35,497 bases of DNA. Source: Candidatus Omnitrophota bacterium (lineage in GTDB: Bacteria > Omnitrophota > Gorgyraeia > Gygaellales > Profunditerraquicolaceae). The notes beneath the pieces are model-generated. The model did not search any database and was not told the DNA's origin. It was given only the letters and a program-made list of their open reading frames with translations. Positions 6,144-29,337 of the stretch are shown piece after piece. The stretch's first letter is position 1. Each line of letters opens with the position of its first letter. The stretch is taken from assembly GCA_041308885.1 (NCBI GenBank), contig JBFZAQ010000203.1, forward strand, positions 1-35,497, given 5' to 3'. The position numbers and the translations under genes were made by a program.

Positions 6144-6187
6144 TACTCACTACTCACTACTCACAACTCTTAACTCTTAACTACAAC
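6144..6187. repeat. heptamer tandem tract TACTCAC x3, AACTCTT x2, AACTACA
   Basis: Direct reading in 7-nt register. It runs across the stop codon (6181-6183) of the 216-aa ORF. It is related to the tract at 29343-29375. Confidence 0.85.
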
Positions 6188-6831: not shown

Positions 6832-6855
6832 ATGCCATCAGCTCCTTTATCGCTC

Positions 6856-7446: not shown

Positions 7447-7483
7447 GGTTTACTCCTTTCATTCGTTAAAACTCGAACATACT

Positions 7484-7520
7484 CGTCATTCTGAGGCGCC
7501 ACAGGCGCCGAAGAATGACG
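7484..7520. repeat. family-B GC-rich hairpin CGTCATTCTGAGGCGCC-ACAG-GCGCCGAAGAATGACG
   Basis: Inverted repeat read directly. It lies between the ydbH-like stop (7559) and the ynbE-ydbL start (7446). Related units occur at 11741-11797 and 24346-24422. Confidence 0.85.
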
Positions 7521-7558
7521 GCGCTCGCCCTCTGTGCTCGCCCAGAATTACAAACCCA

Positions 7559-8692: not shown

Positions 8693-8696
8693 CCGA

Positions 8697-10151
8697 TTAT
8701 TTAAATAGCAATTTCTTGGCCGCGGTCAAAGCCTGCTGTCGAGTTTTAATCTTGCCGATTGCCCGGAGCTCTTCAATTTCCCTAAGCATCTTGCCGATCA
8801 GGGGCGATGGCCCCAGCTTAAAAGCGCCCATCAGATCATCTCCGGTAACCAACCGAGGGGCCGCTTCTTCTTTTTCCTTTAAAAAATAAGACTTGAGTAA
8901 TTTAAGCGCCACTTTCTCATGATGCTTACGGCTGGCTGCTTTGTTTAACGGCCCGCGAGTGGCCCGCTGATCGGCGATAGACAATAAGAGGATGCTGGGA
9001 GCCTCAAGCTTAGCATCCCGAAAGAAACGAAATGCCGCCCGCGCCGTAACCATAACGCAATCCGCCAGATATCCCGGACGCAGATGCCACATCACCATCC
9101 GAGCCAAGGCATCAACCTCATCATTGGCCAGTTTTAAACGCCTGGCAATGGCACAGGCCATCTCCCGGCCGACCCGTTCATGTCCATGAAAAGTAGTCCT
9201 CTTCTTTTCCTTGCGCAGGGTCTTCGGCTTACCCACATCATGCAGTAAAAGCCCTAATTTGATTAAACTGTTGCGGCTGCGTTGGCCGGAAAGCTGCTGT
9301 TTTAAATACTCCTGCACGCCGCTATTCTTCTTAAGCTGAAAAATCAACTTTTCATAATCTCCCAAGGATTCCAAAGTGTGGGTCCAAACATCCAAATGAT
9401 GATAAGGCCCCTGCCCGATTCCGCGCATAGGATCGATCTCCGGAATAATCAAAGACAACAGCCCGCAGGCATCCAACTGCAGCATACACTCATAAGCTTT
9501 CCCGGTTTCGAATATCTTAAACAGCTCATCCCTGATCCGCTCGGCCGAAACTTTGACAATCAAGCGCTTCTGGGAAGCGATTGCCGCGCGGGTCTTAGGA
9601 CAAATAGTAAAATCGAAGATACAACTTAAGCTAAAAGCCCGCAGCATCCTTAAGGGATCATCCTTAAAGGCCCGCTTATCTACCATCCGGACAACTTTAG
9701 CCTTAATGTCAACTCGGCCGTTATGCGGATCAAAACAACTACTCTGCCAGCTATCCGGGTGATCGACAAAAGCCTCTAACGGCACAGCCAGCGTATTCAT
9801 GGTAAAATCACGCAGACCCAAATCCTTCTCAATAGTCGGGGCGCGAAAATCAGCGATATCCAAAGTATAGATTACCGACCCCCGGATCTTGACCATCCGG
9901 CAGCAACCGTGCTCTTTATCCAACACCACAAACCCGGCGCCGATTTTCTTGGCCAGGTCCCGGCCAAAGGCTAGGGCATTATGCTTTAAGCAAAAATCAA
10001 TGTCGGGATTGACTTTACGCCTGGCTACCAACAGATCACGCAGATACCCGCCGACAATAAATAGGCCGGCTTTCCGGGATTCGGCGAAGGAAAAAACTGC
10101 GCTGAGAATTTCACGGTCGTATCTAGACGGGAAAATGGGCATAGGGATCAA
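8697..10151 (-). CDS. cca: CCA-adding tRNA nucleotidyltransferase / poly(A) polymerase family protein with HD domain
   Basis: Head-domain GGYLRDLL...NPDIDF, RDFTMN, and HD motif LLLHDVGKP. Confidence 0.85.
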   Translation of the reverse strand: MIPMPIFPSRYDREILSAVFSFAESRKAGLFIVGGYLRDLLVARRKVNPDIDFCLKHNALAFGRDLAKKIGAGFVVLDKEHGCCRMVKIRGSVIYTLDIADFRAPTIEKDLGLRDFTMNTLAVPLEAFVDHPDSWQSSCFDPHNGRVDIKAKVVRMVDKRAFKDDPLRMLRAFSLSCIFDFTICPKTRAAIASQKRLIVKVSAERIRDELFKIFETGKAYECMLQLDACGLLSLIIPEIDPMRGIGQGPYHHLDVWTHTLESLGDYEKLIFQLKKNSGVQEYLKQQLSGQRSRNSLIKLGLLLHDVGKPKTLRKEKKRTTFHGHERVGREMACAIARRLKLANDEVDALARMVMWHLRPGYLADCVMVTARAAFRFFRDAKLEAPSILLLSIADQRATRGPLNKAASRKHHEKVALKLLKSYFLKEKEEAAPRLVTGDDLMGAFKLGPSPLIGKMLREIEELRAIGKIKTRQQALTAAKKLLFK

Positions 10152-17198: not shown

Positions 17199-17669
17199 TT
17201 ATTTCCTGAAGTTAAATTCTTTTTGCGGCAATCTTTCTCTAATCAACTCTGAAATCTTATGCACAAACTCCTCAGCAATCTTCAAGGCGTCTTTAGCCTC
17301 TTTCATAGAACAAGGAATTTCAGGCTCGTAGATAAACCTGTTTCTTTTCTTCCTCATAAAATCATAATCATTAATAAGCTGCTTAAAGCTATCTCCTAAG
17401 ATTAAACTCGCGAATCTCACAACCGTCGCATGCTTATCCTTTATATCCGGACGGTAACCTTCAATAAACATAAGCGCCAGCCCGGAACGCAACATCGCAT
17501 TATACGCATAATTAAACGCGCATTCTTCGTCCTGGCCTAAGTTTCTTTTGGCAGTCTTAAGATCGACGTAAGCGCGCTTCAACAAATTAAGGATAGATCT
17601 ATCATCAGCAGGGCACTTCTTGATCAAACCATCCTTAAAAAGGGCTTCTTTTGATTCCTTATAAGCCAT
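17199..17669 (-). CDS. HEPN domain protein (putative toxin of a HEPN-MNT pair)
   Basis: A helical protein of about 156 aa with an ...MRKKRNRFIYEPE... block typical of HEPN-family proteins. It overlaps the upstream nucleotidyltransferase gene by 11 nt. Confidence 0.7.
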   Translation of the reverse strand: MAYKESKEALFKDGLIKKCPADDRSILNLLKRAYVDLKTAKRNLGQDEECAFNYAYNAMLRSGLALMFIEGYRPDIKDKHATVVRFASLILGDSFKQLINDYDFMRKKRNRFIYEPEIPCSMKEAKDALKIAEEFVHKISELIRERLPQKEFNFRK

Positions 17670-18234
17670 CTTCTTTACCGACCAGCATTATTTTGGGTCT
17701 CTTTAATAAATCCAAAATGAATCCGCTTCTTGCTGCCTTTTTCGCTTTGTATTCCTGCCAGGAATAAATTGTGGGGTTTATCTCTCTTTTTAGCTTCTTC
17801 TCCAAAATAGAAATCCTTTCATTCACGCAAGAGCTATCCTGATCACCGATAACCATAAGATCGATATCGCTGGCCGAATTTTCTTTTTTTGAGGCAAACG
17901 AACCATAGATGAAAGCGGTTTTTAAACCCTGAATCGATACCAAAGAATTCCTGAGGCTCGCCTCTACCCCGACCGTCTTGGAAACAATACTTTTTAATTC
18001 ATCAAACAAAGGATGGCTTCGGTTAAGGGAATAATAAAGAAGATTACCGACTCTCCGGGTCTTGAATAAATTATCCTTCTGGAATCTCAATAGTTCCCTG
18101 CGGATATTACCGGCAGAATATCCTAATACGCGCTGAAGCTCCCTTAAGTAATATTCCTGAAGCGCATTAGTAAAGAATAAGGCGAGCAGCCCCTGCCTGA
18201 TTTTCGATTTTGCAATATAAAGGCTATCCAGCAT
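17659..18234 (-). CDS. winged-HTH plus minimal nucleotidyltransferase (MNT) domain protein (putative antitoxin)
   Basis: YGSFASKKENSASDIDLMVIGD is the GS-X9-10-D-X-D minimal NTase signature. The N-terminal YYLRELQRVLGYSAGNIRRELLRF is wHTH-like. Confidence 0.8.
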   Translation of the reverse strand: MLDSLYIAKSKIRQGLLALFFTNALQEYYLRELQRVLGYSAGNIRRELLRFQKDNLFKTRRVGNLLYYSLNRSHPLFDELKSIVSKTVGVEASLRNSLVSIQGLKTAFIYGSFASKKENSASDIDLMVIGDQDSSCVNERISILEKKLKREINPTIYSWQEYKAKKAARSGFILDLLKRPKIMLVGKEDGL

Positions 18235-18541: not shown

Positions 18542-19411
18542 CTACTTATCCTTACTATCCTGCTTCAACGGCAGCAGACCCGCCATTTCTCCGATGACGT
18601 TAACCAGCTCCGTATTCGAGGGGACCACAATCTTAGCGTTGTTGGAGATAGCCTTCTCGACGGCTTCGAGTTTTCTTAAAACCTGGGCGTTGCCGACAAA
18701 AAACTTCTCGGCCGCTTCGTTAACCAGCTTGATCGCTTCGGCCTCACCCTCAGCCTGGAGAATCCGCGCCTGTTTGATACCTTCAGCCTTCTTGATTTCG
18801 GCCCGTTTCTGGCCGTCGGCTGCGGTTTCCGTAGCGGTAGCATAATCTATCGCGGCGATCTTTTCATTTTCGGCTTTAACGACTTTATTCATCGTCTCCT
18901 GCACATCCTTAGGAGGGTCAATTTCTTTAAGTTCAGTGCGCACAATCTCAATGCCCCAGTGCGCCGTCTCATTCATCAGAGTCTTATGCAGCTCATCATT
19001 GATCTTGCCGCGCTCGCTATTGGCCGACTTAAGAGTAAGCGTGCCGATAATATTACGCAGAGTAGTGCGGGCAAGATTAACGATCTGATATTGATAATTA
19101 AATACGTTATAGATGCAGTTTTTTACTGTCGTCTCGCTGGGCGTAACCTTGAAATAAACCTGGGCATCCACCTTGGCATTAAGATTATCAAAAGTGATGA
19201 TCTCCTGCGGCTCGGCGTCCACCATCTGCTCGGTTACGTTAACCAGATAGATATGTTCAATCACCGGAAAAACCCAGTTAAAACCGGGATTGGCGAAACG
19301 GTTGTATTTACCAAACCTCTCAACCAGCCCGCGATGGGTAGGCCGAACAATCCGAATCCCCATAAAGAATAAAACCACTAGAACTGCAACCAGCCATCCG
19401 ACGATATTCAT
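18542..19411 (-). CDS. SPFH/Band-7 (stomatin-like) membrane protein
   Basis: N-terminal TM, then IRIVRPTHRGLVERFGKYNRFANPGFNWVFPVIE...VDAQVYFKV... and an A/E-rich C-terminal helix. Confidence 0.85.
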   Translation of the reverse strand: MNIVGWLVAVLVVLFFMGIRIVRPTHRGLVERFGKYNRFANPGFNWVFPVIEHIYLVNVTEQMVDAEPQEIITFDNLNAKVDAQVYFKVTPSETTVKNCIYNVFNYQYQIVNLARTTLRNIIGTLTLKSANSERGKINDELHKTLMNETAHWGIEIVRTELKEIDPPKDVQETMNKVVKAENEKIAAIDYATATETAADGQKRAEIKKAEGIKQARILQAEGEAEAIKLVNEAAEKFFVGNAQVLRKLEAVEKAISNNAKIVVPSNTELVNVIGEMAGLLPLKQDSKDK

Positions 19412-19437: not shown

Positions 19438-20451
19438 CTAAATCAACTGTACTTTCCTTGACCCCTTGACTACAGTGCCGATAATACCGGACTTTAAGCG
19501 TAAACTGGCTAATTTGCGCACTACCGCCTCAGCCGCGCCAACCCGCACAATAAGCACCATCCCTATCCCCATATTCAAAGTATGATACATCTCGTAATCG
19601 GCAATCGCGCCCTTCTCCTGGATCATGCGAAATATTTCCGGCACCGGCCAAGAACCTTTGCGGATAACCACATCCAGGTTATCCGGCAGGATACGAGCAA
19701 TCTTGTCGTAGAAGGCTCCGCCGGTGATGTGGGAGATTCCTTTAATGGTCGATAGTCGATAGTCTATAGTCGATAGTAAAGATAGAATTGGCTTGACGTA
19801 AATTCTAGTGGGTTTAAGTAATTCGGCGCTGTGATTTTTGAGTTCCCTTTCAGATAAAACCTTCCTCACTAAAGAAAATCCGTTGGAATGCAAGCCATTA
19901 GACTCCAGGCCGATCACGACATCACCGGGTTTGATGCCTGAGCCGTCGATAATCCTATCTTTCTCAACTGCCCCGACGCAAAATCCGGCGACGTCGTATT
20001 CGCCGTCACGATAGATATCCGGCATTTGGGCAGTCTCTCCGCCAATTAAAGCGCAGCCTGATTGCACGCACCCTTCGGTTATCCCGCCCACTACCTGAGA
20101 TAATACTCGCGGGGCGACTTTACTAAAAGCAATATAATCCAGGAAAAACAAAGGAACGGCCCCCACGCACAAAATATCATTAACATTCATGGCTACCGCG
20201 TCAATACCGATAGTATCGTGCTTGTTAGCCAGGGCAGCGATTTTCAACTTAGTCCCCACCCCGTCGGCCGAAGAGACCAGAATCGGATTCTTATAGGCGT
20301 TTTTATTAAAGGCAAAAAAAGATCCGAAACCGCCGATATTCTTCAGTACCTCCGGCCGGAACGACTTCTTGACCACGGATCTTAACCCGCGCTTAAACTG
20401 CTCCATCGCCGCAATATCCACCCCTGATTTTTTATAAGTTATACCGGCCAT
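19438..20451 (-). CDS. purM: phosphoribosylformylglycinamidine cyclo-ligase (AIR synthetase)
   Basis: ITYKKSGVDI..., VSSADGVGTKLKIA, GGETAQMP, HITGGAF. It carries an in-frame heptamer tract (19749-19785). Confidence 0.95.
   Translation of the reverse strand: MAGITYKKSGVDIAAMEQFKRGLRSVVKKSFRPEVLKNIGGFGSFFAFNKNAYKNPILVSSADGVGTKLKIAALANKHDTIGIDAVAMNVNDILCVGAVPLFFLDYIAFSKVAPRVLSQVVGGITEGCVQSGCALIGGETAQMPDIYRDGEYDVAGFCVGAVEKDRIIDGSGIKPGDVVIGLESNGLHSNGFSLVRKVLSERELKNHSAELLKPTRIYVKPILSLLSTIDYRLSTIKGISHITGGAFYDKIARILPDNLDVVIRKGSWPVPEIFRMIQEKGAIADYEMYHTLNMGIGMVLIVRVGAAEAVVRKLASLRLKSGIIGTVVKGSRKVQLI
19749..19785. repeat. intragenic heptamer tract TCGATAG x2, TCTATAG, TCGATAG, TAAAGAT in purM
   Basis: Read in 7-nt register. 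It encodes LSLLSTIDYRLSTIKG just upstream of the conserved HITGG block. Confidence 0.85.
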
Positions 20452-20596: not shown

Positions 20597-22060
20597 CTAC
20601 TGAAGATCCCCCTGTCCGCAACAGCGCGCTTCCAACGCGCACTTGCCTTGTTTCTTCTCCGGGGTAACCGGATATTTACCCGACCAACAAGCCGTGCAAT
20701 AATGCGAGGCCGGATGCTTAAAACAGGCTAACATCCCCTCAAGGCTCAAATACCCCAGCGTATCCACGTCCAGATACTGGCGGATCTTATCCAGCGATTC
20801 ATATTTATTGGCGATCAATTCCGAAGAACGGTTAAAATCAATGCCATAGAAGCAGGGAAATCGATGCGGCGGGCAAGAAATCATCAGATGCACTTCTCTA
20901 ACTCCGGCCTTACGCAAATTGCGCACCCTGATCTGCGAGGTGGTCCCGCGCACGATAGAATCATCCACTACCACAATTCTTTTTCCTTTGAGGACATCGG
21001 GCAACAAATTAAATTTAACCCTGACGCTTAGATCCCGGGTATCCTGAGCCGGCTGAATGAATGTCCTACCTACATAGTGATTGCGGATTATCCCCATCTC
21101 CAGCGGAATTCCCGATGCCGCGGAATACCCCAAGGCCGCGGAAAATCCGGAATCAGGCACCGGCACTACCAAATCTGCCTTGATCGGATGCTCCTTAGCC
21201 AGCTGCTCGCCGAGCCGGCGCCTTACCGTATGCACCGTCTGGCCGAAGACAATGGAATCGGGACGGGAAAAATAAACATGCTCAAAGATACAGGAAGCCC
21301 GGCGGTTATGCGGTCGCAACGCTTTAGGCTTGAGGCTGCGTAAGCCGTCATTAGTGATAATCACGGTTTCTCCCGGCTCTACTTCCCGCACATACCGCGC
21401 CCCGATCAGATCAAAAGCGCAGGTTTCCGAAGCTAAACAATAAGCCTTGCCTAATTTACCTAATGCCAAAGGACGAAAACCCAGCGGGTCGCGCACGCCG
21501 ATCAGCTGGTCGGTAGTCATGAACAACAAAGAATAAGCCCCTTTGATCCGCTTCAAGGCATAGAGTAAGCTCTGTTCAAAATTATAAGTCTTAGCCCGGG
21601 CCATCAGATGAATGATGATCTCGGAATCCGTAGTGGTTTGAAAGATCGATCCGCTGGCCTCAAGCGACTGGCGCAATTCTAAAGAATTCACCAAATTGCC
21701 GTTGTGGGCGATACAAATAGAGCCCTTGGCGTAATCAATCAATAGCGGCTGGGCATTTTTTAAAACGCTTGATCCGGTGGTCGAGTAGCGCACGTGCCCG
21801 ACTGCCTTGTCCCCTTTCATCTTATTTAAAAGGGCTTCATCAAAAACTTCGCTGACTAAACCGGTGGCTTTATGAACAGTCAGAACGCCCTTGTGGTTGG
21901 CCACAATTCCGCAGGCCTCCTGGCCGCGGTGCTGCAACGAATACAACCCCAGATACGTCAGCCAACTGGCTTGAGCATGGTTGCTGATCCCGAATAACCC
22001 GCAATATTCCCGCGGCTGAACACCCGGACTACTTCGCACATAGCGCGCTTTTCTCATCAT
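20597..22060 (-). CDS. purF: amidophosphoribosyltransferase (glutamine-PRPP amidotransferase) with propeptide and Fe-S cysteines
   Basis: ...EYCGLFGIS (Cys nucleophile after a leader of about 19 aa), LQHRGQE, HVRYSTTG, AHNGNL, TTDSE, PRTase loop VVVDDSIVRGTT, and C-terminal CTACWSGKYP. The 5' end overlaps the upstream paralogue by 32 nt. Confidence 0.95.
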   Translation of the reverse strand: MMRKARYVRSSPGVQPREYCGLFGISNHAQASWLTYLGLYSLQHRGQEACGIVANHKGVLTVHKATGLVSEVFDEALLNKMKGDKAVGHVRYSTTGSSVLKNAQPLLIDYAKGSICIAHNGNLVNSLELRQSLEASGSIFQTTTDSEIIIHLMARAKTYNFEQSLLYALKRIKGAYSLLFMTTDQLIGVRDPLGFRPLALGKLGKAYCLASETCAFDLIGARYVREVEPGETVIITNDGLRSLKPKALRPHNRRASCIFEHVYFSRPDSIVFGQTVHTVRRRLGEQLAKEHPIKADLVVPVPDSGFSAALGYSAASGIPLEMGIIRNHYVGRTFIQPAQDTRDLSVRVKFNLLPDVLKGKRIVVVDDSIVRGTTSQIRVRNLRKAGVREVHLMISCPPHRFPCFYGIDFNRSSELIANKYESLDKIRQYLDVDTLGYLSLEGMLACFKHPASHYCTACWSGKYPVTPEKKQGKCALEARCCGQGDLQ

Positions 22061-23468
22061 ATACTCCGCTCTTATCCGGCTCTCTGCCGGTCCAGCAATA
22101 GGTGCATAATTTTTCTCCCGGCAAACCGATTGCCGCGATCATGTCGGAAAGCTTCTGATATCGCAGGGTAGTTACCCCCAGATCCTTAGCGATCCAATCC
22201 ACCATCTTTTTATGCTGCGGGGAATCTTCGTCAAGATAAGGCGAAATATCCGTAGCATCTTTACCCTCAATGGCCCGAATAGCCCGTCGGGCTGCCAACT
22301 CGGCCAAGGTCCGGGTAGAACAATTGAATTTACACGGGTACATGAGCGGCGGACAGGCGATCCGCAAATGGATTTGTTTTGCCCCGCATTCCTTAAGCTT
22401 CTGAATGGTATAGTTCTTAAGCTGGGTCCCCCGGACAATGGAATCATCGCAAAAGACGATCATCTTATCTTTAATAATCTCCGGGACGGGGATCAATTTC
22501 ATCTTGGCGATTAGATCGCGCCGCTCCTGAGAGGCAGGGGTATAACTGCGATCAAATCCGGGAGTATATTTTACCAGGGGCCGGCGAAGCGGCACCCCCG
22601 ATTCCATCGCGTAACCTATCGCGTGGGCGGTACCCGAATCGGGTATCCCGGCAACCATATCCGCCGCGGCAGTATCATTCTTAGCCAACATCGCCCCGCT
22701 GCGCTCCCGGGCGACTTCAACATTAATTCCCTCATACGCGGAAGCCGGGACACCGGTATAGATCCATAAAAAAGAGCAGATCTGGTTAGTCTTATTCTCT
22801 TTGCGCCTTTGCTGAACGCCTTTTCCATCAATGAAGATAATCTCGCCCGGGGCAAGAAATTTCCGGATCTTAAAACCCAGATTATGAAACGCTGCCGACT
22901 CGCTGGCCACCGCCCAATCACCGCTTCTTTCCCCAACCACCAACGAAAAATACCCCAACCTATCCCGGGCGGCATATAGGCCTTCTTGAGTGAGTATCAA
23001 CAAGGAACAAGAACCCTCTATCCGGGAAAATAAATACTCTACCCCCTCAACAATGGACTTCCCCTTCAAGATAAGCTTGGCGGCCAACTCCGTCGGGTTT
23101 ACCCGGCCGTCAGCCATCTCGCTGAAAGACTTTCCGTCTTGATATAATTCTTCGGTCAGCTCCCGGGCGTTATCAATAAAACCGTCGGTAACTATGGCAA
23201 AGGAGCCGAATTTGGAATGCATGCACACCGGCTGCTCGTCGTTAGCGCTGATAACGCCGATCCCTTTATTCCCCGGCAAAGATCTGTAATCGCCGTAGAA
23301 TTTGGATTTAAACTGGCTGCCGCGGATATCATGGATCTTGCGTCTTAACTCGGCGCCCCACACGGCCATCCCGGCAAACTGCGTGCCTAAATGCGAATGA
23401 TAATCCGTGCCGTAATAGACATCTTCACCGCAATCTTTTTTTGCCACCACGCCGAATAATCCGCTCAT
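22029..23468 (-). CDS. PurF-like amidophosphoribosyltransferase paralogue with degenerate glutaminase domain (Ser in place of Cys1)
   Basis: MSGLFGVV aligns with (M)CGxxG. HRGQ is replaced by HLGTQ, the VRY(S/P)T Arg is missing (GVISAND), and HNGN is replaced by TDGF. The PRTase loop IVFCDDSIVRGTQ and the CTYCWTG Fe-S-type cysteines are retained. GGAG lies 7 nt before the ATG. Confidence 0.8.
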   Translation of the reverse strand: MSGLFGVVAKKDCGEDVYYGTDYHSHLGTQFAGMAVWGAELRRKIHDIRGSQFKSKFYGDYRSLPGNKGIGVISANDEQPVCMHSKFGSFAIVTDGFIDNARELTEELYQDGKSFSEMADGRVNPTELAAKLILKGKSIVEGVEYLFSRIEGSCSLLILTQEGLYAARDRLGYFSLVVGERSGDWAVASESAAFHNLGFKIRKFLAPGEIIFIDGKGVQQRRKENKTNQICSFLWIYTGVPASAYEGINVEVARERSGAMLAKNDTAAADMVAGIPDSGTAHAIGYAMESGVPLRRPLVKYTPGFDRSYTPASQERRDLIAKMKLIPVPEIIKDKMIVFCDDSIVRGTQLKNYTIQKLKECGAKQIHLRIACPPLMYPCKFNCSTRTLAELAARRAIRAIEGKDATDISPYLDEDSPQHKKMVDWIAKDLGVTTLRYQKLSDMIAAIGLPGEKLCTYCWTGREPDKSGVYDEKSALCAK

Positions 23469-23481
23469 TTAAATACTCCTC

Positions 23482-24306
23482 TTATAATAATTCCCGAGCG
23501 TAAGCTACGCCGTTCTTAAAAATTAATGACCCGTCGGGTGCCCACCGGCATTTTTTACCCGTCCACCGGGGATGCTGGTTCGGTTGGATATGCCGCTCGG
23601 GATGAGGCATCAGCCCAAGGATCCTGCCGGTTTCATCGCAGATCCCGGCGATATGCTCAATAGCGCCGTTAGGATTAATGGGGTAAGAACCAGCCTGGCC
23701 ATGCTCATCGCAATACCGGAACACAATCTGCCCATTTTCCTTAAGCCGTTTTAAAACGAGCGCATCTTGAACCACAAACTTCCCTTCCCCGTGCGCCACC
23801 GGCAAATAGACAACTTCCGGCAAATCCTTTACCCACACGCATTTTACTTGCGTCTTGCGTCTTGCCTGCCTGCCGGTCAGGCAGGCGTCTTGCGTCTTCA
23901 AATAAACCCACCGATCCTCGAATTTCCCCGAATCATTGATAATCAGGCTGGCTTCCTGCCGAAGCTCCGGGTTACCCGGCAGTAATCCGCTTTTAACCAA
24001 TACCTGAAAACCATTGCAGATCCCGATGATCAGCTTGCCATCGGCAATAAAGCGTTTAAGCGGGCCCAAAAGCTTGCCCTTAAGCTCATTGGCCAGAATC
24101 TTACCCGCCCCCAGATCATCACCGTAACTAAAACCACCGGGAAATGCCAAAATTTGGAATTCATCCAGCTCGCGCGCTCCGGAAACCAGGGCATTAACAT
24201 GCACCAGATCGGAATCAGCGCCCGCCTGCTCAAAGGCAAACGCCGTTTCTTGGTCGCAGTTAGTCCCCGCGGCGCGCAATACGCAAACTTGAGGTTTTCT
24301 CGCCAT
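23482..24306 (-). CDS. purQ: phosphoribosylformylglycinamidine synthase I (glutaminase subunit)
   Basis: MARKPQVCVLRAAGTNCDQE..., nucleophile elbow GICNGFQ, and C-terminal MPHPER. I moved the start to ATG 24306; the track extension (to 24384) runs into family-B repeat sequence. It carries an in-frame palindromic insert (23847-23898). Confidence 0.9.
   Translation of the reverse strand: MARKPQVCVLRAAGTNCDQETAFAFEQAGADSDLVHVNALVSGARELDEFQILAFPGGFSYGDDLGAGKILANELKGKLLGPLKRFIADGKLIIGICNGFQVLVKSGLLPGNPELRQEASLIINDSGKFEDRWVYLKTQDACLTGRQARRKTQVKCVWVKDLPEVVYLPVAHGEGKFVVQDALVLKRLKENGQIVFRYCDEHGQAGSYPINPNGAIEHIAGICDETGRILGLMPHPERHIQPNQHPRWTGKKCRWAPDGSLIFKNGVAYARELL
23847..23898. repeat. intragenic in-frame element in purQ: CTTGCGT heptamers flanking a GCCTGCCTGCC/GG(T)CAGGCAGGC palindrome
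   Basis: In 7-nt register it reads CTTGCGT CTTGCGT CTTGCCT GCCTGCC GGTCAGG CAGGCGT CTTGCGT. It encodes KTQDACLTGRQARRKTQVK. The core matches the intergenic palindrome at 11821-11840, 15037-15048 and 15653-15664. Confidence 0.85.
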
Positions 24307-24345
24307 GTTAATATCTCGCCGCCATTCTAAGCAACACTCCCAATT

Positions 24346-24422
24346 CGTCATGCTGAGGCCGCAGGCCGAAGCATCCAACGCCATTCTGGATCCTTCGGCG
24401 CCTGCGGCGCCTCAGGATGACC
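24346..24422. repeat. family-B GC-rich hairpin pair
   Basis: CGTCATGCTGAGGCCGCAGGCCGAAGCATC followed by an oppositely oriented unit TCCTTCGGCGCCTGCGGCGCCTCAGGATGACC. It lies in the LOG to purQ spacer. Confidence 0.85.
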
Positions 24423-24438: not shown

Positions 24439-25122
24439 CTACATACCCTGCGGAATCCCTCTGTGATGATGCGCATAAAAACTCTTAATAATCTGCACCA
24501 CTTCCTTAGGATTGTCGGTAACGGTAAATATCTGCAAATCTTCCTGACTGATGTTACCGTTTTTTAACACCGTGGATTTTATCCATTCAATCATCCCTTT
24601 CCAATACTCTTTTCCCATGAGAATTACGGGAAAACGGGGTATACGTTTGGTCTGAATAAGATTGATAGCTTCGGTAAATTCATCCAGGGTGCCGTAACCG
24701 CCAGGCATGATCACAAAGGCTTTGGCGTATTTGACAAACATTACTTTACGGACGAAAAAATATTTAAACTCCAATAACAAGCCAACGAATTTATTCGACT
24801 TCTGTTCCATCGGCAGTTCAATATTCAAACCTATCGACTGCCCGCCGGCGCGCCGGGCCCCGCGATTGGCCGCCTCCATCATCCCCGGTCCGCTGCCGGT
24901 AATGATCGCGTAGCCTTCCCTGGCTAAAAGAAATGCGGTTTCTTCGGCTAACTTATAGTATTTCTCATTCGGCGCTTTCTGACGGCTGGAACCAAAAAAA
25001 GATACGGCCTTGCCGACCTTCGAAAGGATCTCAAACCCTTCCACGAATTCCGACATAATTCGGAATATCCGCCAGGTGTCTTCGGTGGTAAAATCATCCT
25101 TGAGCATCCTATGCTTAGCCAT
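24439..25122 (-). CDS. LOG-family (TIGR00730-type) nucleotide 5'-monophosphate nucleosidase / cytokinin riboside 5'-monophosphate phosphoribohydrolase-like protein
   Basis: GSGPGMMEAANRGA and PGGYGTLDEF signature motifs. ATG 25122 has GGAGG 5 nt upstream. The track start (25167) lies inside repeat copy A5. Confidence 0.85.
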   Translation of the reverse strand: MAKHRMLKDDFTTEDTWRIFRIMSEFVEGFEILSKVGKAVSFFGSSRQKAPNEKYYKLAEETAFLLAREGYAIITGSGPGMMEAANRGARRAGGQSIGLNIELPMEQKSNKFVGLLLEFKYFFVRKVMFVKYAKAFVIMPGGYGTLDEFTEAINLIQTKRIPRFPVILMGKEYWKGMIEWIKSTVLKNGNISQEDLQIFTVTDNPKEVVQIIKSFYAHHHRGIPQGM

Positions 25123-25135
25123 AAATACCTCCGGT

Positions 25136-25250
25136 AAAATTTCCAATGACCAAGTCCCAAATCCCAATGAATGACCAATTACTAAATCCCAATTGAATAT
25201 TGGTCATTGGGATTTCATTGGGATTTGGGGCTTGGAATTTGGTCATTAAA
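25136..25250. repeat. family-A element, copy A5
   Basis: AAAATTTCCAATGACCAAGTCCCAAATCCCAATGAATGACCAATTACTAAATCCCAATTG, then the inverted arm ATTGGTCATTGGGATTTCATTGGGATTTGGGGCTTGGAATTTGGTCATT. It begins 20 nt downstream of the purSL stop. Confidence 0.9.
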
Positions 25251-25270: not shown

Positions 25271-28213
25271 TTACCAGCGTAACGGTCTCTGCCAGGCTTC
25301 TTTTAACTGCGCGATATCGGCTTTTACGCACACTTTGCCGTTCAAACCATGGACGGTAAAATATTCCTTATCGGACAGGCAGCCGATTAACCCCAGCGGC
25401 ACGCCGGTTAACGCGCGCTCAAATTCTTTCTGCTTGCTCTTTTCCACTTCCACGATAAATCGCGAATTAGACTCCGAGAACAACAAAACATCATTTCTTA
25501 CGTCCTGCGTCTTGCGTCCTGCGTCTTGCGTCCGGTATGGGATTTCTCCGGCAAACATCTCCATCCCCAGCCCTCCGGCAAACGCCATCTCCGCGGCGGC
25601 CACGGCAATGCCGCCCTCCGAACAATCATGCAGGGAGCTGACCAACCCTAAGGCTGTAGCCCGGTTTAAGGCGGCAAAAATCTTAATCGCCACGCTACAA
25701 TCAACCCGCGGCACGCTGTTGCCCAGCGCCCCAAGCAAAGCATAATACTGCGAACCGCCTAATTCTTCTTTCGTCTCTCCGACGGCATAAATCAGGCCGC
25801 CGGGGCGCTTAGCGTACATGGAAACTGCCTTACGCGCGTCCTCCATCACCGCTATGGCGCTGATCAAGAGCGTCCCCGGGATGGCTAAGGATTTCCCGTG
25901 CTCGGTATATTCATTATATAAACTGTCTTTGCCGGATATAAAAGGCACGCCAAAACCCTTGGCAATATCATAACAGCCATAGGCCGCCCGCACCAAGGAA
26001 CCCAACCGGTCCGGTTTATCCGGATTTCCCCAACAGAAATTATCCAGTATCGCCGCCCGCTCCAGGGAACCGCCTACGGCAATAACCTGCCTCAAGGCCT
26101 CGTCAATACAAGATGCGGCCATCCAATACGGATCTATGCCCCCGAAACGAAAATTTATACCGCAGGAAATAACCAAGCCTTTTACCGATCCAAGTATAGG
26201 CTTAACCACCGCAGCGTCGGAAGGCCCGTCATTGACGATGCCCACTAACGGCTTGATCACCGATTGACCCTGCACTTCATGATCATATTGGCGGATAACC
26301 CACTCTTTGGAACAAATATCATAGCTAGACAACAGCTTCAACAGATACAAGGTCAAATCTTTTTTTAATGGTAATTTTGGCTGTGGATGCCGCTTTTGGG
26401 TAAAGACCGCGATTTTTTTAATATCCGGCAGGCCAGCGTGCAAGAAATCCATATCCAGATCGCCCACCTTGCGACCGGAATAAAATAACTCCAGGCGCTT
26501 GCTCCCGGTAAACTCCCCGATCACTGCGGCCTCAACGTTCTCGCCGGCGAACAAATCCAACAATTCGGCGAGGTTTTCCTTGGGCACGGATAAGATCATC
26601 CGCTCCTGCGACTCGGATATCCAAATTTCGGTATAAGAAAGCCCGCTGTATTTTAAAGGCGCCTTTTCTAGATCAACCCGCACTCCTAAATCCCGGCCCA
26701 TTTCGCCCACGGCGCTGGAGAATCCTCCCGCGCCACAATCAGTAATGGCGTCATATAAATCGCGGTCGCGGGCCTGCAGGATAGCATCCACCATCTTCTT
26801 TTCCTGAATCGGATTGCCGATCTGCACCGCGGAGCTGGAAATAGTTTCGGATTCGTGGGTCAACTCTCCCGACGAGAATGTAGCCCCGTGTATTCCGTCG
26901 CGCCCGGTCCGGCCGCCGACGGCCACGACTAAATCGCCGACCTTGGCGCGCTTAAAAGATTTATCCTTAGGCATGATCCCCACAGTGCCGCAATACACCA
27001 AAGGATTACCCACGAACCGCTCATCAAAAAGTATAGCCCCATTGACCGTGGGTATGCCCATTTTATTTCCGTAATCCCGCACTCCCGACACTACCCCTTT
27101 CATCACCCGCTTAGGATGCAGCGTGCCCTTAGGTAACTTACTAAAGGGATAATCCGGCGGCGCAAAACAAAAGACGTCGGTATTCAAGATCGGCTTAGCC
27201 CCCAAACCCGTGCCTAAGGGATCCCGGATAACCCCGCCTACTCCGGTATTAGCCCCGCCGAATGGCTCCAAGGCCGACGGATGATTATGGGTCTCTACCT
27301 TGAAACAGACATTATTCTCTTTATCGAACTCGATCACCCCGGAATTATCATGGAACACCGAAACGCACCAGGACTTATTCAGATCTTGAGTAACCTTCAT
27401 GATCGTGGATTTTAGAAGATTATCGATTAATCTAGGTTTTAGGTTATAGGTTATAGGTTTTAGCTTACTTAATAACTTTTCCCGATATTCTATTTTTCCG
27501 CGAAAGGTCTTATGCGCGCAATGCTCCGACCAGGTCTGGGCAATAGTTTCCAACTCGCAATCGGTGGGATTGCGCTTTATTTTCTGGAAGTATTTCTTAA
27601 TCATGCGCATTTCCGCTAGATTCAAAAACAACTGCCCAGTCTTACTAATTTCCTGCAGTTTCTTATCCGAGGCACCGATTAAATCTACGGTAATCAATTT
27701 GAATTTAGGCTCGCTTTTTTCTTTTTCCTGTCCCCTGTCCCCTGACCCCTGTCCCCTGACCACATGCTGTATCAATTTATTATACAGCAGCTTCTCCGTA
27801 ATCATCTTAAACTGCGCATCCGTAAGCTTGCCCTCAATTATATATTTCTTCGCCGTCTTAAAAGCAGCAACTCCGTCAATGCCGAGATCGCGAATTCCCT
27901 TAAGCGCTGATTCTTCCACCGGGTCCATGACCCCGGGGTTATAGGCTACCTCCACCACGCGGTCAGCGTTAATTCCGGAAGTTAAAATGGTAGGCCGATT
28001 GATATAGCAGTCTTGAGAAACGGGGTCAACTAACAGCTGGCTGCAGATTGTTGCAACTTGATTTTGGGCAAGCGTTCCGTCTAGAGTATAAACCTGGATG
28101 AACCGGACACCCTTAACCGCCTTTACGCCTAGATCAATAATGTCTTTTTTAACCCCCGCGCCAACCGCGTCAAAAATACCCGGCTTATCGGCAATTTCTA
28201 TTTTCCAAGACAT
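25271..28213 (-). CDS. purL: phosphoribosylformylglycinamidine synthase, PurS-PurS-PurL fusion (PurSL)
   Basis: Two N-terminal PurS-like repeats (IADKPGIFDAVGAGVKKDIIDLG...VRFIQVY and VAYNPGVMDPVEESALKGIRDLG...). The PurL core follows (SEHCAHKTF, VETHNHPS, GNPLVYCGTVG, two AIR-synthase-like halves). It carries three in-frame heptamer tracts. Confidence 0.9.
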   Translation of the reverse strand: MSWKIEIADKPGIFDAVGAGVKKDIIDLGVKAVKGVRFIQVYTLDGTLAQNQVATICSQLLVDPVSQDCYINRPTILTSGINADRVVEVAYNPGVMDPVEESALKGIRDLGIDGVAAFKTAKKYIIEGKLTDAQFKMITEKLLYNKLIQHVVRGQGSGDRGQEKEKSEPKFKLITVDLIGASDKKLQEISKTGQLFLNLAEMRMIKKYFQKIKRNPTDCELETIAQTWSEHCAHKTFRGKIEYREKLLSKLKPITYNLKPRLIDNLLKSTIMKVTQDLNKSWCVSVFHDNSGVIEFDKENNVCFKVETHNHPSALEPFGGANTGVGGVIRDPLGTGLGAKPILNTDVFCFAPPDYPFSKLPKGTLHPKRVMKGVVSGVRDYGNKMGIPTVNGAILFDERFVGNPLVYCGTVGIMPKDKSFKRAKVGDLVVAVGGRTGRDGIHGATFSSGELTHESETISSSAVQIGNPIQEKKMVDAILQARDRDLYDAITDCGAGGFSSAVGEMGRDLGVRVDLEKAPLKYSGLSYTEIWISESQERMILSVPKENLAELLDLFAGENVEAAVIGEFTGSKRLELFYSGRKVGDLDMDFLHAGLPDIKKIAVFTQKRHPQPKLPLKKDLTLYLLKLLSSYDICSKEWVIRQYDHEVQGQSVIKPLVGIVNDGPSDAAVVKPILGSVKGLVISCGINFRFGGIDPYWMAASCIDEALRQVIAVGGSLERAAILDNFCWGNPDKPDRLGSLVRAAYGCYDIAKGFGVPFISGKDSLYNEYTEHGKSLAIPGTLLISAIAVMEDARKAVSMYAKRPGGLIYAVGETKEELGGSQYYALLGALGNSVPRVDCSVAIKIFAALNRATALGLVSSLHDCSEGGIAVAAAEMAFAGGLGMEMFAGEIPYRTQDAGRKTQDVRNDVLLFSESNSRFIVEVEKSKQKEFERALTGVPLGLIGCLSDKEYFTVHGLNGKVCVKADIAQLKEAWQRPLRW
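25497..25533. repeat. intragenic heptamer tract CTTACGT, CCTGCGT, CTTGCGT, CCTGCGT, CTTGCGT in purSL
   Basis: Read in register. It encodes RTQDAGRKTQDV shortly before the conserved LLFSESNSRF block. It uses the same heptamer as the purQ and purD inserts. Confidence 0.85.
27434..27468. repeat. intragenic heptamer tract AGGTTTT, AGGTTAT x2, AGGTTTT, AGCTTAC in purSL
   Basis: Read in register. It encodes (S)KLKPITYNLKPR about 12 residues after the AHKTF motif. Confidence 0.85.
27727..27761. repeat. intragenic heptamer tract CCTGTCC x2, CCTGACC, CCTGTCC, CCTGACC in purSL
   Basis: Read in register. It encodes RGQGSGDRGQ at the boundary between the second PurS-like repeat and the PurL core. Confidence 0.85.
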
Positions 28214-28231: not shown

Positions 28232-29137
28232 TTAATTCTTTGGGTCGCTTGCTGAAGAAACGCTGGGTTTCTTACGCAATAATTGGTCATCGGGATTCAC
28301 CGCGCGGAACATCGGCATATTGGCTTCCGTAGCCACATAGATAACATTCGGGTTTTGATTCAGGGTGTTGATCCACAAATAATGCAGATACTGCTCGGTC
28401 AAACTTTCGGCGATAATCTCCTGGGCGTCCCGGATGCCTTTAGCCTCTACTCGTTTGCGCTCGGCTTCCTGCGTTTCTTTCTGCAAAATAAATTTCATCC
28501 GTTCGGCATCCTGCTCGGCGCGCAGCTTCTGTTCAATGGCTTGGCCGAGAGTCGCGGGGAGCTTCATGCCGCGCAGAAGCACGCTCTCTAAAATAATGCC
28601 CCGTTCGGCTAAAATCGCCTTTAAAGAGCTAAGAATGGCCTGGGCCAGCATTTCCCTTTCCGAAGTATACAAAGCCTTGGCTTCGTTTAAAACCGTGATA
28701 CCCCTGGCCGCCGCGCGGAACTGGGGGATAACGACGATATCTTTATAGTATGGCCCGATAGTCTTATAAATTTGCACTGCCCGGTCAGGATCAATGCGAT
28801 AAAGTATGGAAAGATCAAGGTTGATAGTCAGGCCTTCTTTGGAAGGCACCGGCATTATCTCCATGGTTTCCTGCGTGCGCACCGAGATCTTGGCTACTTT
28901 AGCTAACGGGTTAACCAGATTAAGGCCACTGGAAAGCGGCCGCGGAGAAACTCGCCCGAAGAAATCCACAACTCCGACATATCCGGCCGGGACTACGCGT
29001 GCGGAGCTGAATAATATGCCCGCGGCTAAGCCGATAATCGTGGTCACTAAAATCGGCCGAGCCGATCCGGTCTTAGTCACTTGGATAAATACGATACCGA
29101 TAATGAATCCGAAAGCCAAGATTATCAGCAAACCCAT
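28232..29137 (-). CDS. SPFH/prohibitin-family membrane protein
   Basis: TM segments, then VVPAGYVGVVDFFGRV...NLDLSILYRIDP..., and a coiled-coil EQKLRAEQDAERMKF. ATG 29137 has GGAGG 5 nt upstream. The track start at 29209 is a GTG in another ORF's territory. Confidence 0.85.
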   Translation of the reverse strand: MGLLIILAFGFIIGIVFIQVTKTGSARPILVTTIIGLAAGILFSSARVVPAGYVGVVDFFGRVSPRPLSSGLNLVNPLAKVAKISVRTQETMEIMPVPSKEGLTINLDLSILYRIDPDRAVQIYKTIGPYYKDIVVIPQFRAAARGITVLNEAKALYTSEREMLAQAILSSLKAILAERGIILESVLLRGMKLPATLGQAIEQKLRAEQDAERMKFILQKETQEAERKRVEAKGIRDAQEIIAESLTEQYLHYLWINTLNQNPNVIYVATEANMPMFRAVNPDDQLLRKKPSVSSASDPKN

Positions 29138-29160
29138 ATTATCCTCCTCGGTTAAAAAAA

Positions 29161-29337
29161 TTACCGCCGCGGCCTGCGTGACTTGCCGTATCCTTGAAAC
29201 GCTTTCCACAACGATGCCGACACCAACCCCACCAGCGCGGCCGCTATCAGCGCCCCCGGTTTAATCCGGCGCTTAATAATTACATAGACCAACCCAATCA
29301 GAAAACCAATTATTGTACCCAGAACTATTATAACCAT
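29161..29337 (-). CDS. small (58 aa) two-helix membrane protein, not in ORF track
   Basis: My translation from ATG 29337 to TAA 29161-29163 gives MVIIVLGTIIGFLIGLVYVIIKRRIKPGALIAAALVGLVSASLWKAFQGYGKSRRPRR. This is two hydrophobic stretches separated by KRRIK. It ends 23 nt before the SPFH start. No clear SD. Confidence 0.45.
   Translation of the reverse strand: MVIIVLGTIIGFLIGLVYVIIKRRIKPGALIAAALVGLVSASLWKAFQGYGKSRRPRR

What the first reader, a model, noticed from the sequence alone, without database searches (positions are those of the whole stretch)
22029..23468. Tandem purF paralogue with a dead-looking glutaminase domain but an intact PRTase/Fe-S part
Immediately upstream of the canonical purF, and overlapping it by 32 nt, lies a 479-aa PurF-like gene. 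Its N-terminus is MSGLFGVV, with AGC Ser where the Ntn nucleophile Cys should be. The other glutaminase residues I remember from PurF are also replaced: HRGQ to HLGTQ, the Arg of VRY(S/P)T is missing, and HNGN becomes TDGF. This is therefore not a single sequencing error. The PRPP loop (IVFCDDSIVRGTQ) and cysteines in Fe-S-ligand-like positions (…CPPLMYPC…, CTYCWTG) are retained. Possible roles are an ammonia-dependent PRA synthase, a regulatory or scaffolding partner of PurF, or a PRTase with a different acceptor. I do not know of a characterised function for such a paralogue.
Basis: partly seen in the sequence, partly recalled or inferred. Interest (0 to 1): 0.65.

Follow-up and report, generated by a model that had tools for sequence, protein, structure and literature searches.

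The report
Cysteine-less PurF-type enzyme in purine operon
The gene is real and belongs to an old, widespread, uncharacterised branch of the PurF family that has lost its glutamine-splitting site but kept its sugar-phosphate transferase site. In many anaerobes it sits alone where purF normally sits, so it most likely starts purine synthesis from free ammonia.

Summary
A 479-aa PurF homologue (22029-23468) overlaps a canonical purF (20597-22060) by 32 nt inside an Omnitrophota purine operon. It lacks the Cys nucleophile and all glutamine-site residues. It keeps the PRPP loop, the flexible loop, channel-wall residues and four Fe-S cysteines.

It is not a recent tandem duplicate. It is 28% identical to its neighbour but 42-45% identical to homologues in Oscillospiraceae and Bacteroidales. 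It falls in a monophyletic, Cys-less clade that also has archaeal members. In 245 species-level sequences, residue 2 is Gly (163) or Ser (82), so no N-terminal nucleophile is conserved. A remodelled N-domain motif (D22 Y23 S25 H26 G28 T29, S74, N124, E127) is nearly invariant.

In most related operons the gene occupies the purF slot alone. One example is purE-purC-X-purM-purN-IMP cyclohydrolase-purH-purD-purL.

Best reading (about 0.55): an ammonia-dependent phosphoribosylamine synthase, an isozyme or replacement of PurF. Rivals are a PurF partner subunit, or a new nitrogen donor or ligand site.

Cys-less "PurF′" proteins were noted in Crenarchaeota in 2011. I found no biochemical characterisation. 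Whole-genome co-occurrence with canonical purF could not be tested.

The parts
22029..23468 (-). Cys-less PurF-family gene (479 aa), the feature in question
   Evidence: ORF. TIGR01134 scores 201.5 bits, below the cut-off of 350. 28% identical to the neighbouring PurF. The best solved relative is B. subtilis PurF.
22785..23468 (-). N-terminal Ntn-amidotransferase-like domain (about aa 1-228), with the glutamine site lost and remodelled
   Evidence: Pfam GATase_7 covers aa 74-195. Cys1, Arg26, Arg73/Tyr74, Asn101 and Asp127 equivalents are replaced or deleted. Identity across phyla is 41-48%.
23463..23465 (-). AGC codon for Ser2, at the position of the PurF Cys nucleophile
   Evidence: Across 245 homologues this position is Gly in 163 and Ser in 82.
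23382..23405 (-). Codons for D22-Y-H-S-H-L-G-T29, the family-specific motif that replaces (L)xxLQHRGQ
   Evidence: D22, Y23, H26 and G28 are invariant. S25 and T29 are at least 97% conserved in 245 sequences.
22032..22784 (-). C-terminal type-I phosphoribosyltransferase domain (about aa 229-479)
   Evidence: Alignment to 1AO0. D277-S-G, K300, R307-S308, P311, Q314 and R317 are invariant.
22419..22457 (-). PRPP-binding loop V338-F-C-D-D-S-I-V-R-G-T-Q-L350
   Evidence: D342, S343, R346, G347, T348 and Q349 are invariant in 245 sequences. The loop aligns with DDSIVRGTT of PurF.
22776..22778 (-). Cys231, putative [4Fe-4S] ligand (equivalent to B. subtilis Cys236; numbering from memory)
   Evidence: Invariant, 245/245. 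Alignment.
22332..22334 (-). Cys379, putative [4Fe-4S] ligand (equivalent to B. subtilis Cys382; numbering from memory)
   Evidence: Invariant, 245/245. Alignment.
22095..22106 (-). Cys455-x-x-Cys458, putative [4Fe-4S] ligands (equivalent to B. subtilis Cys437/Cys440; numbering from memory)
   Evidence: Both invariant, 245/245. The TGC codons are read directly.
23476..23481 (-). Shine-Dalgarno GAGGAG of the paralogue, followed by an in-frame TAA (23469-23471) just before the ATG
22029..22060 (-). 32-nt overlap between the 3' end of the paralogue and the 5' end of canonical purF. The purF GGAG lies at 22064-22067.
20597..22060 (-). Canonical glutamine-dependent purF (487 aa; 19-residue propeptide, then Cys20)
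   Evidence: TIGR01134 scores 516 bits, above the cut-off of 350. C, HRGQ, RYST, HNGN and DSE are all present.
23482..24384 (-). purQ (FGAM synthase glutaminase subunit), immediately upstream in the operon
   Evidence: Pfam GATase_5, 270 bits.
25271..28213 (-). purS-purL fusion, first gene of the purL-LOG-purQ-X-purF-purM block
   Evidence: Pfam PurS, FGAR-AT_linker, AIRS and AIRS_C.
19438..20451 (-). purM, downstream gene of the operon
   Evidence: Pfam AIRS and AIRS_C.

Best explanation
The gene encodes a glutaminase-dead member of the PurF family that still catalyses the first committed step of purine synthesis (PRPP + NH3 -> 5-phosphoribosylamine + PPi). It takes nitrogen as ammonia or ammonium instead of releasing it from glutamine.

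Shown:
- The type-I PRTase site is intact: PRPP loop, PDSG, and the flexible-loop Lys, Arg and Gln.
- The aromatic residues I take, from memory of the E. coli structure, to be channel-wall residues (F233/Y237, equivalent to F254/Y258) are invariant.
- The four Fe-S cysteines are invariant.
- Every residue that binds or attacks glutamine is gone.
- The gene sits in purine operons in the purF slot, usually alone.

Inferred:
- Ammonia reaches the PRPP site through the retained interdomain path.
- The remodelled, invariant pocket (D22, Y23, S25, H26, T29, S74, N124, E127) at the former glutamine site captures or admits NH4+/NH3.
- The N domain is kept because it is needed for PRTase loop closure, Fe-S binding and oligomerisation.

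In this window the enzyme is co-transcribed, and probably translationally coupled, with a normal glutamine-dependent PurF. That would give the cell an ATP-saving route when ammonium is plentiful and a glutamine route when it is scarce. In most relatives one of the two has been lost from the slot.
For: 1. Catalytic apparatus. In 245 species-level homologues from three phyla, D277-S-G, K300, R307, S308, P311, Q314, R317, D342, S343, R346, G347, T348, F233, Y237 and C231/C379/C455/C458 are invariant. The alignment to B. subtilis PurF is. The fold match to 1AO0 has TM 0.69-0.72.

2. Operon slot in Oscillospiraceae. The homologue is the only PurF-like gene in purE-purC-X-purM-purN-IMP cyclohydrolase-purH-purD-purL. 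About 50 of 80 species loci show X directly followed by purM, and 12 of 80 have a canonical purF in tandem.

3. Operon slot in close Omnitrophota relatives. The same slot in purL-LOG-purQ--purM holds X alone in 19 loci, X+purF in 6 (including the window), and purF alone in 2. This is the pattern expected of interchangeable isozymes.

4. Bacteroidales. X lies next to large purL in 19 of 80 loci, with no canonical purF within 10 kb.

5. Invariant residues are the same whether or not purF is adjacent.

6. Established biochemistry. E. coli PurF with Cys1 changed to Ala or Ser loses glutamine-dependent activity but can still use ammonia (Mei & Zalkin 1989, as summarised in PMC3261824). The same hypothesis was proposed there for archaeal PurF′.

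7. The lineages I could name (Omnitrophota, Oscillospiraceae, Bacteroidales) are, to my knowledge, anaerobes of ammonium-rich habitats. This fits an Fe-S, NH3-using enzyme (inference).
Against: - No enzyme assay exists for any member.
- I could not test whether genomes with X alone in the operon carry a canonical purF elsewhere. One MAG (JAGVOB01) does have X at one locus (L070) and purL-purF-purM at another (L085).
- The 32-nt overlap with purF here, tight spacing in some other tandems, and recurrent tandem arrangements in two phyla would also suit a hetero-oligomer.
- Simple NH3 entry does not obviously require an invariant remodelled pocket.
- The flexible loop is one residue shorter (RSYTP versus RTFIxP). 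The last Thr of the PRPP loop is an invariant Gln.
- The AlphaFold model is only moderate (pLDDT 70) and is poor exactly at residues 20-27, 226-248, 297-323 and 373-386.
- A more distant Cys-less PurF-like clade occurs in small bacterial genomes and was not next to purine genes in the two contexts examined. Cys-less PurF homologues may therefore have other roles.
Confidence: 0.55

Rival explanations
1. It is a non-catalytic or regulatory partner. The protein forms mixed oligomers with canonical PurF (PurF is a dimer or tetramer). It modulates PurF activity, stability, feedback inhibition or oxygen sensitivity and makes little phosphoribosylamine itself.
For: - The two genes overlap by 32 nt, with the purF ribosome-binding site inside the paralogue. 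This favours coupled, stoichiometric expression.
- Tandems recur in Omnitrophota (6 loci) and, in both gene orders, in Oscillospiraceae (12 loci).
- In Crenarchaeota each genome studied has one PurF and one PurF′ close together (PMC3261824).
- The N domain is strongly conserved without a glutaminase site.
Against: - Most operons contain the paralogue without purF: 19 of 27 close Omnitrophota loci, about 50 of 80 Oscillospiraceae loci, and none of 80 Bacteroidales loci has purF within 10 kb.
- A pure regulator would not need invariant PRPP-loop, flexible-loop and channel residues.
- The two gene orders in Oscillospiraceae argue for shared pathway membership rather than one co-evolved pair.
Confidence: 0.12
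2. It is a PRTase with a new nitrogen source or a new ligand site. The remodelled N domain has gained a function: hydrolysing a different amide or amine donor at a new active site, or binding an effector. Alternatively, the PRTase domain transfers phosphoribose to a nucleophile other than ammonia.
For: - A family-specific constellation at the former glutamine pocket is invariant or at least 97% conserved across three phyla (D22, Y23, S25, H26, G28, T29, S74, N124, E127).
- The N domain is as conserved as a working glutaminase domain: 41-48% versus 46%.
- In more distant Omnitrophota the gene lies outside pur operons, next to DUF1846, carAB and glmS.
- Related Cys-less clades exist in small bacterial genomes with no purine genes nearby in the two contexts examined.
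Against: - Residue 2 is Gly in 163 of 245 sequences, so an Ntn mechanism is excluded.
- To my knowledge there is no precedent for another catalytic mechanism in this fold.
- Operon context points squarely at purine step 1.
- Retention of channel-wall residues fits NH3 as the species delivered.
Confidence: 0.2
3. It is a decaying duplicate or pseudogene of purF with no function.
For: Loss of all glutaminase residues. It scores below the PurF model cut-off.
Against: - The 479-codon frame is intact and has a strong ribosome-binding site.
- It is 70-75% identical to over a hundred homologues and 42-45% identical across phyla, with about 100 invariant positions.
- The clade is ancient and monophyletic.
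Confidence: 0.01

Closest known systems
B. subtilis-type [4Fe-4S] glutamine PRPP amidotransferase (PurF; PDB 1AO0/1GPH; TIGR01134)
   Same: - Same two-domain architecture and fold (Foldseek TM 0.69-0.72; phmmer E = 4e-52).
- Same PRPP loop, PDSx motif and flexible-loop Lys/Arg/Gln.
- Same four Cys ligand positions.
- Same operon position between purQ/purL/purC and purM.
   Different: - No Cys nucleophile (Ser here, Gly in most relatives).
- HRGQ becomes HLGT.
- The Arg-Tyr glutamine loop is deleted (8 residues).
- HNGN becomes TDGF.
- The α-amino-binding Asp is not conserved.
- There is a 5-residue insertion carrying invariant N124.
- RGTT becomes RGTQ(L).
- Only 28% identity, and 201 bits against a 350-bit cut-off.
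PurF′ of Crenarchaeota (Brown et al. 2011, Biol Direct 6:63, PMC3261824)
   Same: - A PurF homologue lacking the N-terminal Cys.
- Encoded close to purF and other purine genes.
- Proposed, but untested, to be an ammonia-dependent PRPP aminotransferase.
   Different: - PurF′ was described only in Crenarchaeota, with Ala or Val at the nucleophile position and always alongside PurF.
- The clade here is bacterial plus archaea that use DNA polymerase D. It has Gly or Ser at that position and usually stands alone in the operon.
- Whether the two are the same clade was not tested, because no crenarchaeal sequences were at hand.
E. coli PurF Cys1Ala / Cys1Ser mutants (Mei & Zalkin 1989, as cited in PMC3261824)
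   Same: [quoted passage not shown] This is the biochemical precedent for the proposed activity.
   Different: Those are point mutants with an otherwise intact glutamine pocket. Here the whole pocket has been rebuilt and fixed by selection.
Mlab_0150 of Methanocorpusculum labreanum (Ser in place of Cys; PMC3261824)
   Same: A second PurF-like gene with Ser at the nucleophile position.
   Different: It was reported as a recent duplicate most similar to that organism's own purF. The window gene is far from its neighbour (28% identity) and belongs to an ancient clade.

Membership tests
Canonical glutamine-dependent PurF (EC 2.4.2.14; TIGR01134 equivalog) | N-terminal Cys nucleophile, exposed after Met or propeptide removal | tested here: not met
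   Ser2 (AGC), with an in-frame stop directly upstream of the ATG. Across 245 homologues this position is Gly in 163 and Ser in 82.
Canonical glutamine-dependent PurF (EC 2.4.2.14; TIGR01134 equivalog) | Glutamine-site residues (E. coli numbering): Arg26/Gly27, Arg73/Tyr74, Asn101/Gly102, Asp127 | tested here: not met
   Arg26 is replaced by Leu27. The Arg-Tyr loop is deleted. HNGN becomes TDGF. The position aligning with Asp127 is variable in the family: S 116, D 27, K 27, Y 21.
Canonical glutamine-dependent PurF (EC 2.4.2.14; TIGR01134 equivalog) | Score at or above the curated model cut-off | tested here: not met
   201.5 bits against a cut-off of 350. The neighbouring purF scores 516.3.
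Canonical glutamine-dependent PurF (EC 2.4.2.14; TIGR01134 equivalog) | Type-I PRTase PRPP loop, PDS(S/G) motif and flexible loop | tested here: met
   Aligned to 1AO0 and invariant in 245 sequences.
Canonical glutamine-dependent PurF (EC 2.4.2.14; TIGR01134 equivalog) | Two-domain Ntn-amidotransferase + PRTase fold | tested here: met
   The AF2 model (pLDDT 70) matches 1AO0_A best: E = 4.7e-34, TM 0.69/0.72.
Canonical glutamine-dependent PurF (EC 2.4.2.14; TIGR01134 equivalog) | Four Cys ligands of the [4Fe-4S] cluster (B. subtilis class) | tested here: met
   C231, C379, C455 and C458 align with the ligand positions and are invariant. Actual cluster binding is not testable here.
Canonical glutamine-dependent PurF (EC 2.4.2.14; TIGR01134 equivalog) | Glutamine- or ammonia-dependent formation of phosphoribosylamine | not testable with these tools
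   Needs an enzyme assay or complementation.
PurF′ (Cys-less PurF paralogue; Brown et al. 2011) | PurF homologue without the N-terminal Cys | tested here: met
PurF′ (Cys-less PurF paralogue; Brown et al. 2011) | Encoded close to purF and other purine genes | tested here: met
   The window operon is purS/L-LOG-purQ-X-purF-purM, with purB, purD and purE nearby.
PurF′ (Cys-less PurF paralogue; Brown et al. 2011) | Every genome with PurF′ also has a canonical PurF | tested here: inconclusive
   True for the window and for MAG JAGVOB01 (L070 + L085). Most related operons lack an adjacent purF, but whole genomes could not be searched.
PurF′ (Cys-less PurF paralogue; Brown et al. 2011) | Falls in the same phylogenetic cluster as the crenarchaeal PurF′ proteins | not tested
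   No crenarchaeal sequences were retrieved. Archaeal members of the present clade were seen only on contigs that carry DNA polymerase D or LonB.
Ntn hydrolases in general | Conserved N-terminal Cys, Ser or Thr nucleophile | tested here: not met
   Ser is fixed in Omnitrophota (80 of 80). Gly is fixed in Oscillospiraceae (84 of 84) and in Bacteroidales (79 of 80).

The most novel reading that the evidence does not exclude
The clade is a distinct, ancient class of phosphoribosylamine synthase. The former glutaminase domain has been rebuilt into a dedicated ammonium-capture module, or a site for another nitrogen donor or effector. This site is defined by invariant D22, Y23, S25, H26, T29, S74, N124 and E127 and feeds the retained interdomain channel. 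In this reading the enzyme, not canonical PurF, is the sole first-step enzyme of purine synthesis in large anaerobic lineages, including abundant human-gut Oscillospiraceae and Bacteroidales.
Probability: 0.25. Interest if true: 0.75.

Novelty: new variant of a known kind. Interest (0 to 1): 0.6.

Why it matters
PurF is the committed, feedback-regulated step of purine synthesis and a textbook case of ammonia channelling from glutamine. If a whole clade spread across bacteria and archaea, often the only PurF-like gene in the pur operon, works without glutamine, three things follow:

1. Purine synthesis in many anaerobes, including major gut taxa, is wired directly to free ammonium. This has consequences for nitrogen and energy budgets and for metabolic models, which currently copy the glutamine-dependent EC 2.4.2.14 reaction.
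2. Database annotation of these genes as ordinary amidophosphoribosyltransferase is mechanistically wrong.
3. The invariant rebuilt pocket offers a natural experiment in how an amidotransferase domain is repurposed after losing catalysis.

The question raised for archaeal PurF′ in 2011 becomes directly testable with this gene pair. The window supplies both enzymes from one operon.

Tried and rejected
1. Hidden upstream Cys or a wrong start codon. Rejected: an in-frame TAA lies immediately 5' of the ATG, and there is a strong Shine-Dalgarno.

2. Ser2 as an alternative Ntn nucleophile. Rejected for the family: Gly in 163 of 245 sequences.

3. Recent tandem duplication. Rejected: 28% identity to the neighbour versus 42-45% to homologues in other phyla, and a separate NJ clade. 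The tree is a simple distance tree with midpoint rooting and no support values.

4. Genome-level co-occurrence of the paralogue with canonical purF. I tried a genome-contig scan with the canonical PurF. It gave only one informative MAG (JAGVOB01). All four genome scans are now used.

5. Literature. Six searches found only Brown et al. 2011. A further search for Bacteroides purF genetics gave nothing relevant.

6. Rfam scan of the window for a riboswitch or leader. No hits.

7. AlphaFold with 30 sequences of about 70% identity gave only pLDDT 70. Coordinates are not exposed, so the conserved pocket could not be mapped in 3D.

8. Taxon names for divergent representatives through cluster look-ups were mostly empty.

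9. I examined whether the 'MAG...' Cys-less group is the archaeal PurF′. Its contigs are bacterial (SmpB, IF3, L20).


Full report
**1. The observation**

The feature is real and lies on the minus strand. ORF 22029..23468 encodes 479 aa beginning MSGLFGVV. Its ATG is preceded by GAGGAG and by an in-frame TAA, so no upstream Cys can be recruited. The next gene, 20597..22060, is a normal purF. It scores 516 bits against TIGR01134 (cut-off 350) and carries Cys20 after a 19-residue propeptide, plus HRGQ, VRYST, HNGN and DSE. It starts 32 nt inside the paralogue and has its own GGAG.

The paralogue scores 201.5 bits against TIGR01134, below the cut-off. It is 28% identical to its neighbour. Its best match among solved structures is B. 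subtilis PurF, by sequence (E = 4e-52) and by fold (AF2 pLDDT 70; Foldseek TM 0.69-0.72 to 1AO0).

- Cys1 -> Ser2
- HRGQ -> HLGT
- the Arg-Tyr glutamine loop removed by an 8-residue deletion
- HNGN -> TDGF

The PRPP loop, the PDSG motif, the flexible loop and the four Cys that align with the B. subtilis Fe-S ligands are all kept.

**2. Organism and operon**

The closest homologues (70-75% identity) come from Omnitrophota MAGs. The window is a nucleotide-metabolism supercluster on the minus strand. In order it contains:
- pstSCAB-phoU
- purB
- an SPFH protein
- purS-purL
- a LOG-family gene
- purQ
- the paralogue
- purF
- purM
- a second SPFH protein
- an MNT/HEPN pair
- purD and purE
- a Sua5/YciO-phosphatase fusion
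- rpiB, glyA, a dCMP deaminase and nrdR

No Rfam element is present.

**3. A large, old, separate family**

An exhaustive HMMER search of 1.84 billion representatives returned full-length relatives down to about 40% identity. Their N-termini read M[S/G/T/A]G[FLI]FG and they carry a conserved FYGTDYHSHLGT motif. Named or context-identifiable members occur in four groups:
- Omnitrophota
- Oscillospiraceae, including Lawsonibacter, Pseudoflavonifractor, Flavonifractor, Intestinimonas and Agathobaculum
- Bacteroidales, including Muribaculaceae, Barnesiella, Rikenellaceae and Alistipes
- archaeal contigs carrying Cdc6/Orc1 and DNA polymerase D, or LonB and Kae1

A distance tree places all of these in one clade. 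Canonical PurFs and several other divergent groups fall outside it. The tree is NJ with midpoint rooting and no support values. The window gene is therefore not a local duplicate of its neighbour.

**4. Conservation**

I extracted 245 species-level sequences from the fetched loci.
- Residue 2 is Gly in 163 and Ser in 82. All 80 Omnitrophota sequences have Ser. All 84 Oscillospiraceae and 79 of 80 Bacteroidales sequences have Gly. A conserved N-terminal nucleophile is therefore excluded.
- Invariant in the PRTase half: C231, F233, Y237, D277, G279 (S278 in 244 of 245), K300, R307, S308, P311, Q314, R317, D342, S343, R346, G347, T348, Q349, C379, C455 and C458.
- Invariant or nearly so in the N half: G3, G6, G20, D22, Y23, S25, H26, G28, T29, H46, S74, Q79, P80, N100, N124 and E127.

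Of the N-half residues, H26, H46, Q79-P80, N100 and E127 also align with conserved positions of canonical PurF. D22, Y23, S25, T29, S74 and N124 are specific to this clade, and they sit where the glutamine pocket used to be.

N-domain identity between phyla is 41-48%. This is the same as for the working glutaminase domain of canonical PurF between the same taxa (46%). The N domain is under strong selection and is not decaying.

**5. Genomic context**

In Oscillospiraceae the homologue sits in purE-purC-X-purM-purN-IMP cyclohydrolase-purH-purD-purL. It is the only candidate there for step 1. Across 80 species loci, about 50 have X directly followed by purM. Twelve have a canonical purF in tandem, on either side of X.

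In the 27 closest Omnitrophota loci plus the window, the slot in purL-LOG-(purQ)-[ ]-purM holds:
- X alone in 19
- X-purF in 6
- undetermined in 3, because the contig ends

Two further operons with the same flanking genes hold purF alone (L081, L082).

In Bacteroidales, X follows large purL in 19 of 80 loci, and no canonical purF lies within 10 kb in any locus.

In more distant Omnitrophota (60-65% identity), X lies outside pur operons. There it is often next to DUF1846, carA/carB, glmS, a pseudouridine synthase, greA or a hexokinase. One such MAG also has purL-purF-purM on another contig (L070 and L085).

**6. Interpretation**

Shown:
- The gene is intact and ancient.
- It is catalytically equipped as a PRPP-dependent transferase and probably binds an Fe-S cluster.
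- It cannot be a glutamine Ntn amidotransferase.
- It is embedded in purine operons at the purF position, more often alone than with purF.

Inference: the protein makes phosphoribosylamine from PRPP and ammonia. The three-state slot pattern (X, X+purF, purF) in closely related operons is what one expects of isofunctional enzymes, with one or the other lost from the slot.

I rate this at about 0.55. The rebuilt invariant pocket suggests something more specific than passive NH3 entry. It could be an ammonium-recruitment site, an effector site or a new donor site. I cannot decide between these, and I carry the possibility as the novel case and as a rival (0.2).

The hetero-oligomer or regulator model (0.12) is favoured by the 32-nt overlap and by recurrent tandems. 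It is disfavoured by the many purF-less operons and by the invariant catalytic residues.

**7. Main weakness**

I could not search whole genomes. "Alone" therefore means alone in the operon and within 6-10 kb, not alone in the genome. The pattern-based genome scan with canonical PurF was saturated and uninformative.

**8. Relation to what is known**

Brown et al. 2011 (PMC3261824) described Cys-less PurF′ next to purF in Crenarchaeota and a Ser-bearing duplicate in Methanocorpusculum. They proposed an ammonia-dependent role without testing it.

My other searches of the held literature found no characterisation of any Cys-less PurF and no description of the bacterial clade. Public records simply call these proteins amidophosphoribosyltransferase. 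Membership in TIGR01134-type PurF fails on the defining glutaminase features. Membership in the crenarchaeal PurF′ cluster was not tested.

I classify the finding as a new variant of a known kind, with interest 0.6.

Noticed in passing
window 24439-25167 (-); also L001-L027, L081, L082: A LOG-family gene (Pfam Lysine_decarbox / SLOG cluster 4) is inserted between purL and purQ. It keeps this place in essentially all of the closely related Omnitrophota pur operons examined. LOG-type enzymes split nucleoside monophosphates into base and ribose 5-phosphate, so a fixed place in a de novo purine operon is unexplained.
   Followed up: partly
window 25271-28213 (-): PurL is a 980-aa fusion with an N-terminal PurS domain, while purQ is separate. 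Some close relatives instead have a PurL-like gene of about 670-740 aa that is only about 30% identical and no adjacent purQ.
   Followed up: no
window 20597-22060 (-): The canonical PurF has a 19-residue leader (MMRKARYVRSSPGVQPREY) before Cys20. Relatives share a ...PKEYCGLFG junction. This implies propeptide processing as in B. subtilis.
   Followed up: no
window 18542-19411 (-) and 28232-29209 (-): Two SPFH/band-7 genes bracket the purL...purM block. The downstream one is conserved (78-86% identity) next to purM in many relatives.
   Followed up: no
window 17199-18234 (-): A nucleotidyltransferase (MNT-like) and HEPN gene pair, a typical toxin-antitoxin module, sits between the band-7 gene and purD. 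It interrupts the purine cluster.
   Followed up: no
L030, L031, L040, L052, L059, L060, L064, L072 and others (positions around 1500-9200): In Omnitrophota where the Cys-less PurF gene lies outside the pur operon, it is repeatedly adjacent to a DUF1846 protein (12 loci), carA/carB (8 loci) and sometimes glmS. This may indicate a nitrogen- or nucleotide-metabolism neighbourhood, with DUF1846 of unknown role.
   Followed up: partly
L328 3607-5007, L329 3626-5026, L330 6001-7371: A more distant Cys-less PurF-like clade (N-termini MAG[LI].GLS) lies next to a NUDIX gene, rplT/infC and smpB on bacterial contigs. A related representative is named Patescibacteria. No purine genes are nearby, which suggests a non-purine role for that clade.
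   Followed up: partly
L331 8001-9386; L332 8001-9437: Members of the same clade as the window gene (about 50% and 37% identity) occur on archaeal contigs. L331 carries Cdc6/Orc1 and DNA polymerase D subunits. L332 carries LonB, Kae1 and an intein-containing ATPase. Neither copy is in a pur operon.
   Followed up: no
window 3887-4834 (-) and 4824-5540 (-): A Macro-NUDIX fusion protein overlaps a gene with a retropepsin-like aspartyl protease domain (Pfam gag-asp_proteas / Asp_protease_2). A dCTP deaminase-like gene follows.
   Followed up: no
representatives P0165, P0179, P0186, P0217, P0228, P0242: Some PurF-like proteins keep the Cys nucleophile and HRGQ but lack the RYST loop, and they have AFSG/AYDG in place of HNGN. 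This is an intermediate state between canonical PurF and the Cys-less clades. Their taxonomy is unknown.
   Followed up: no
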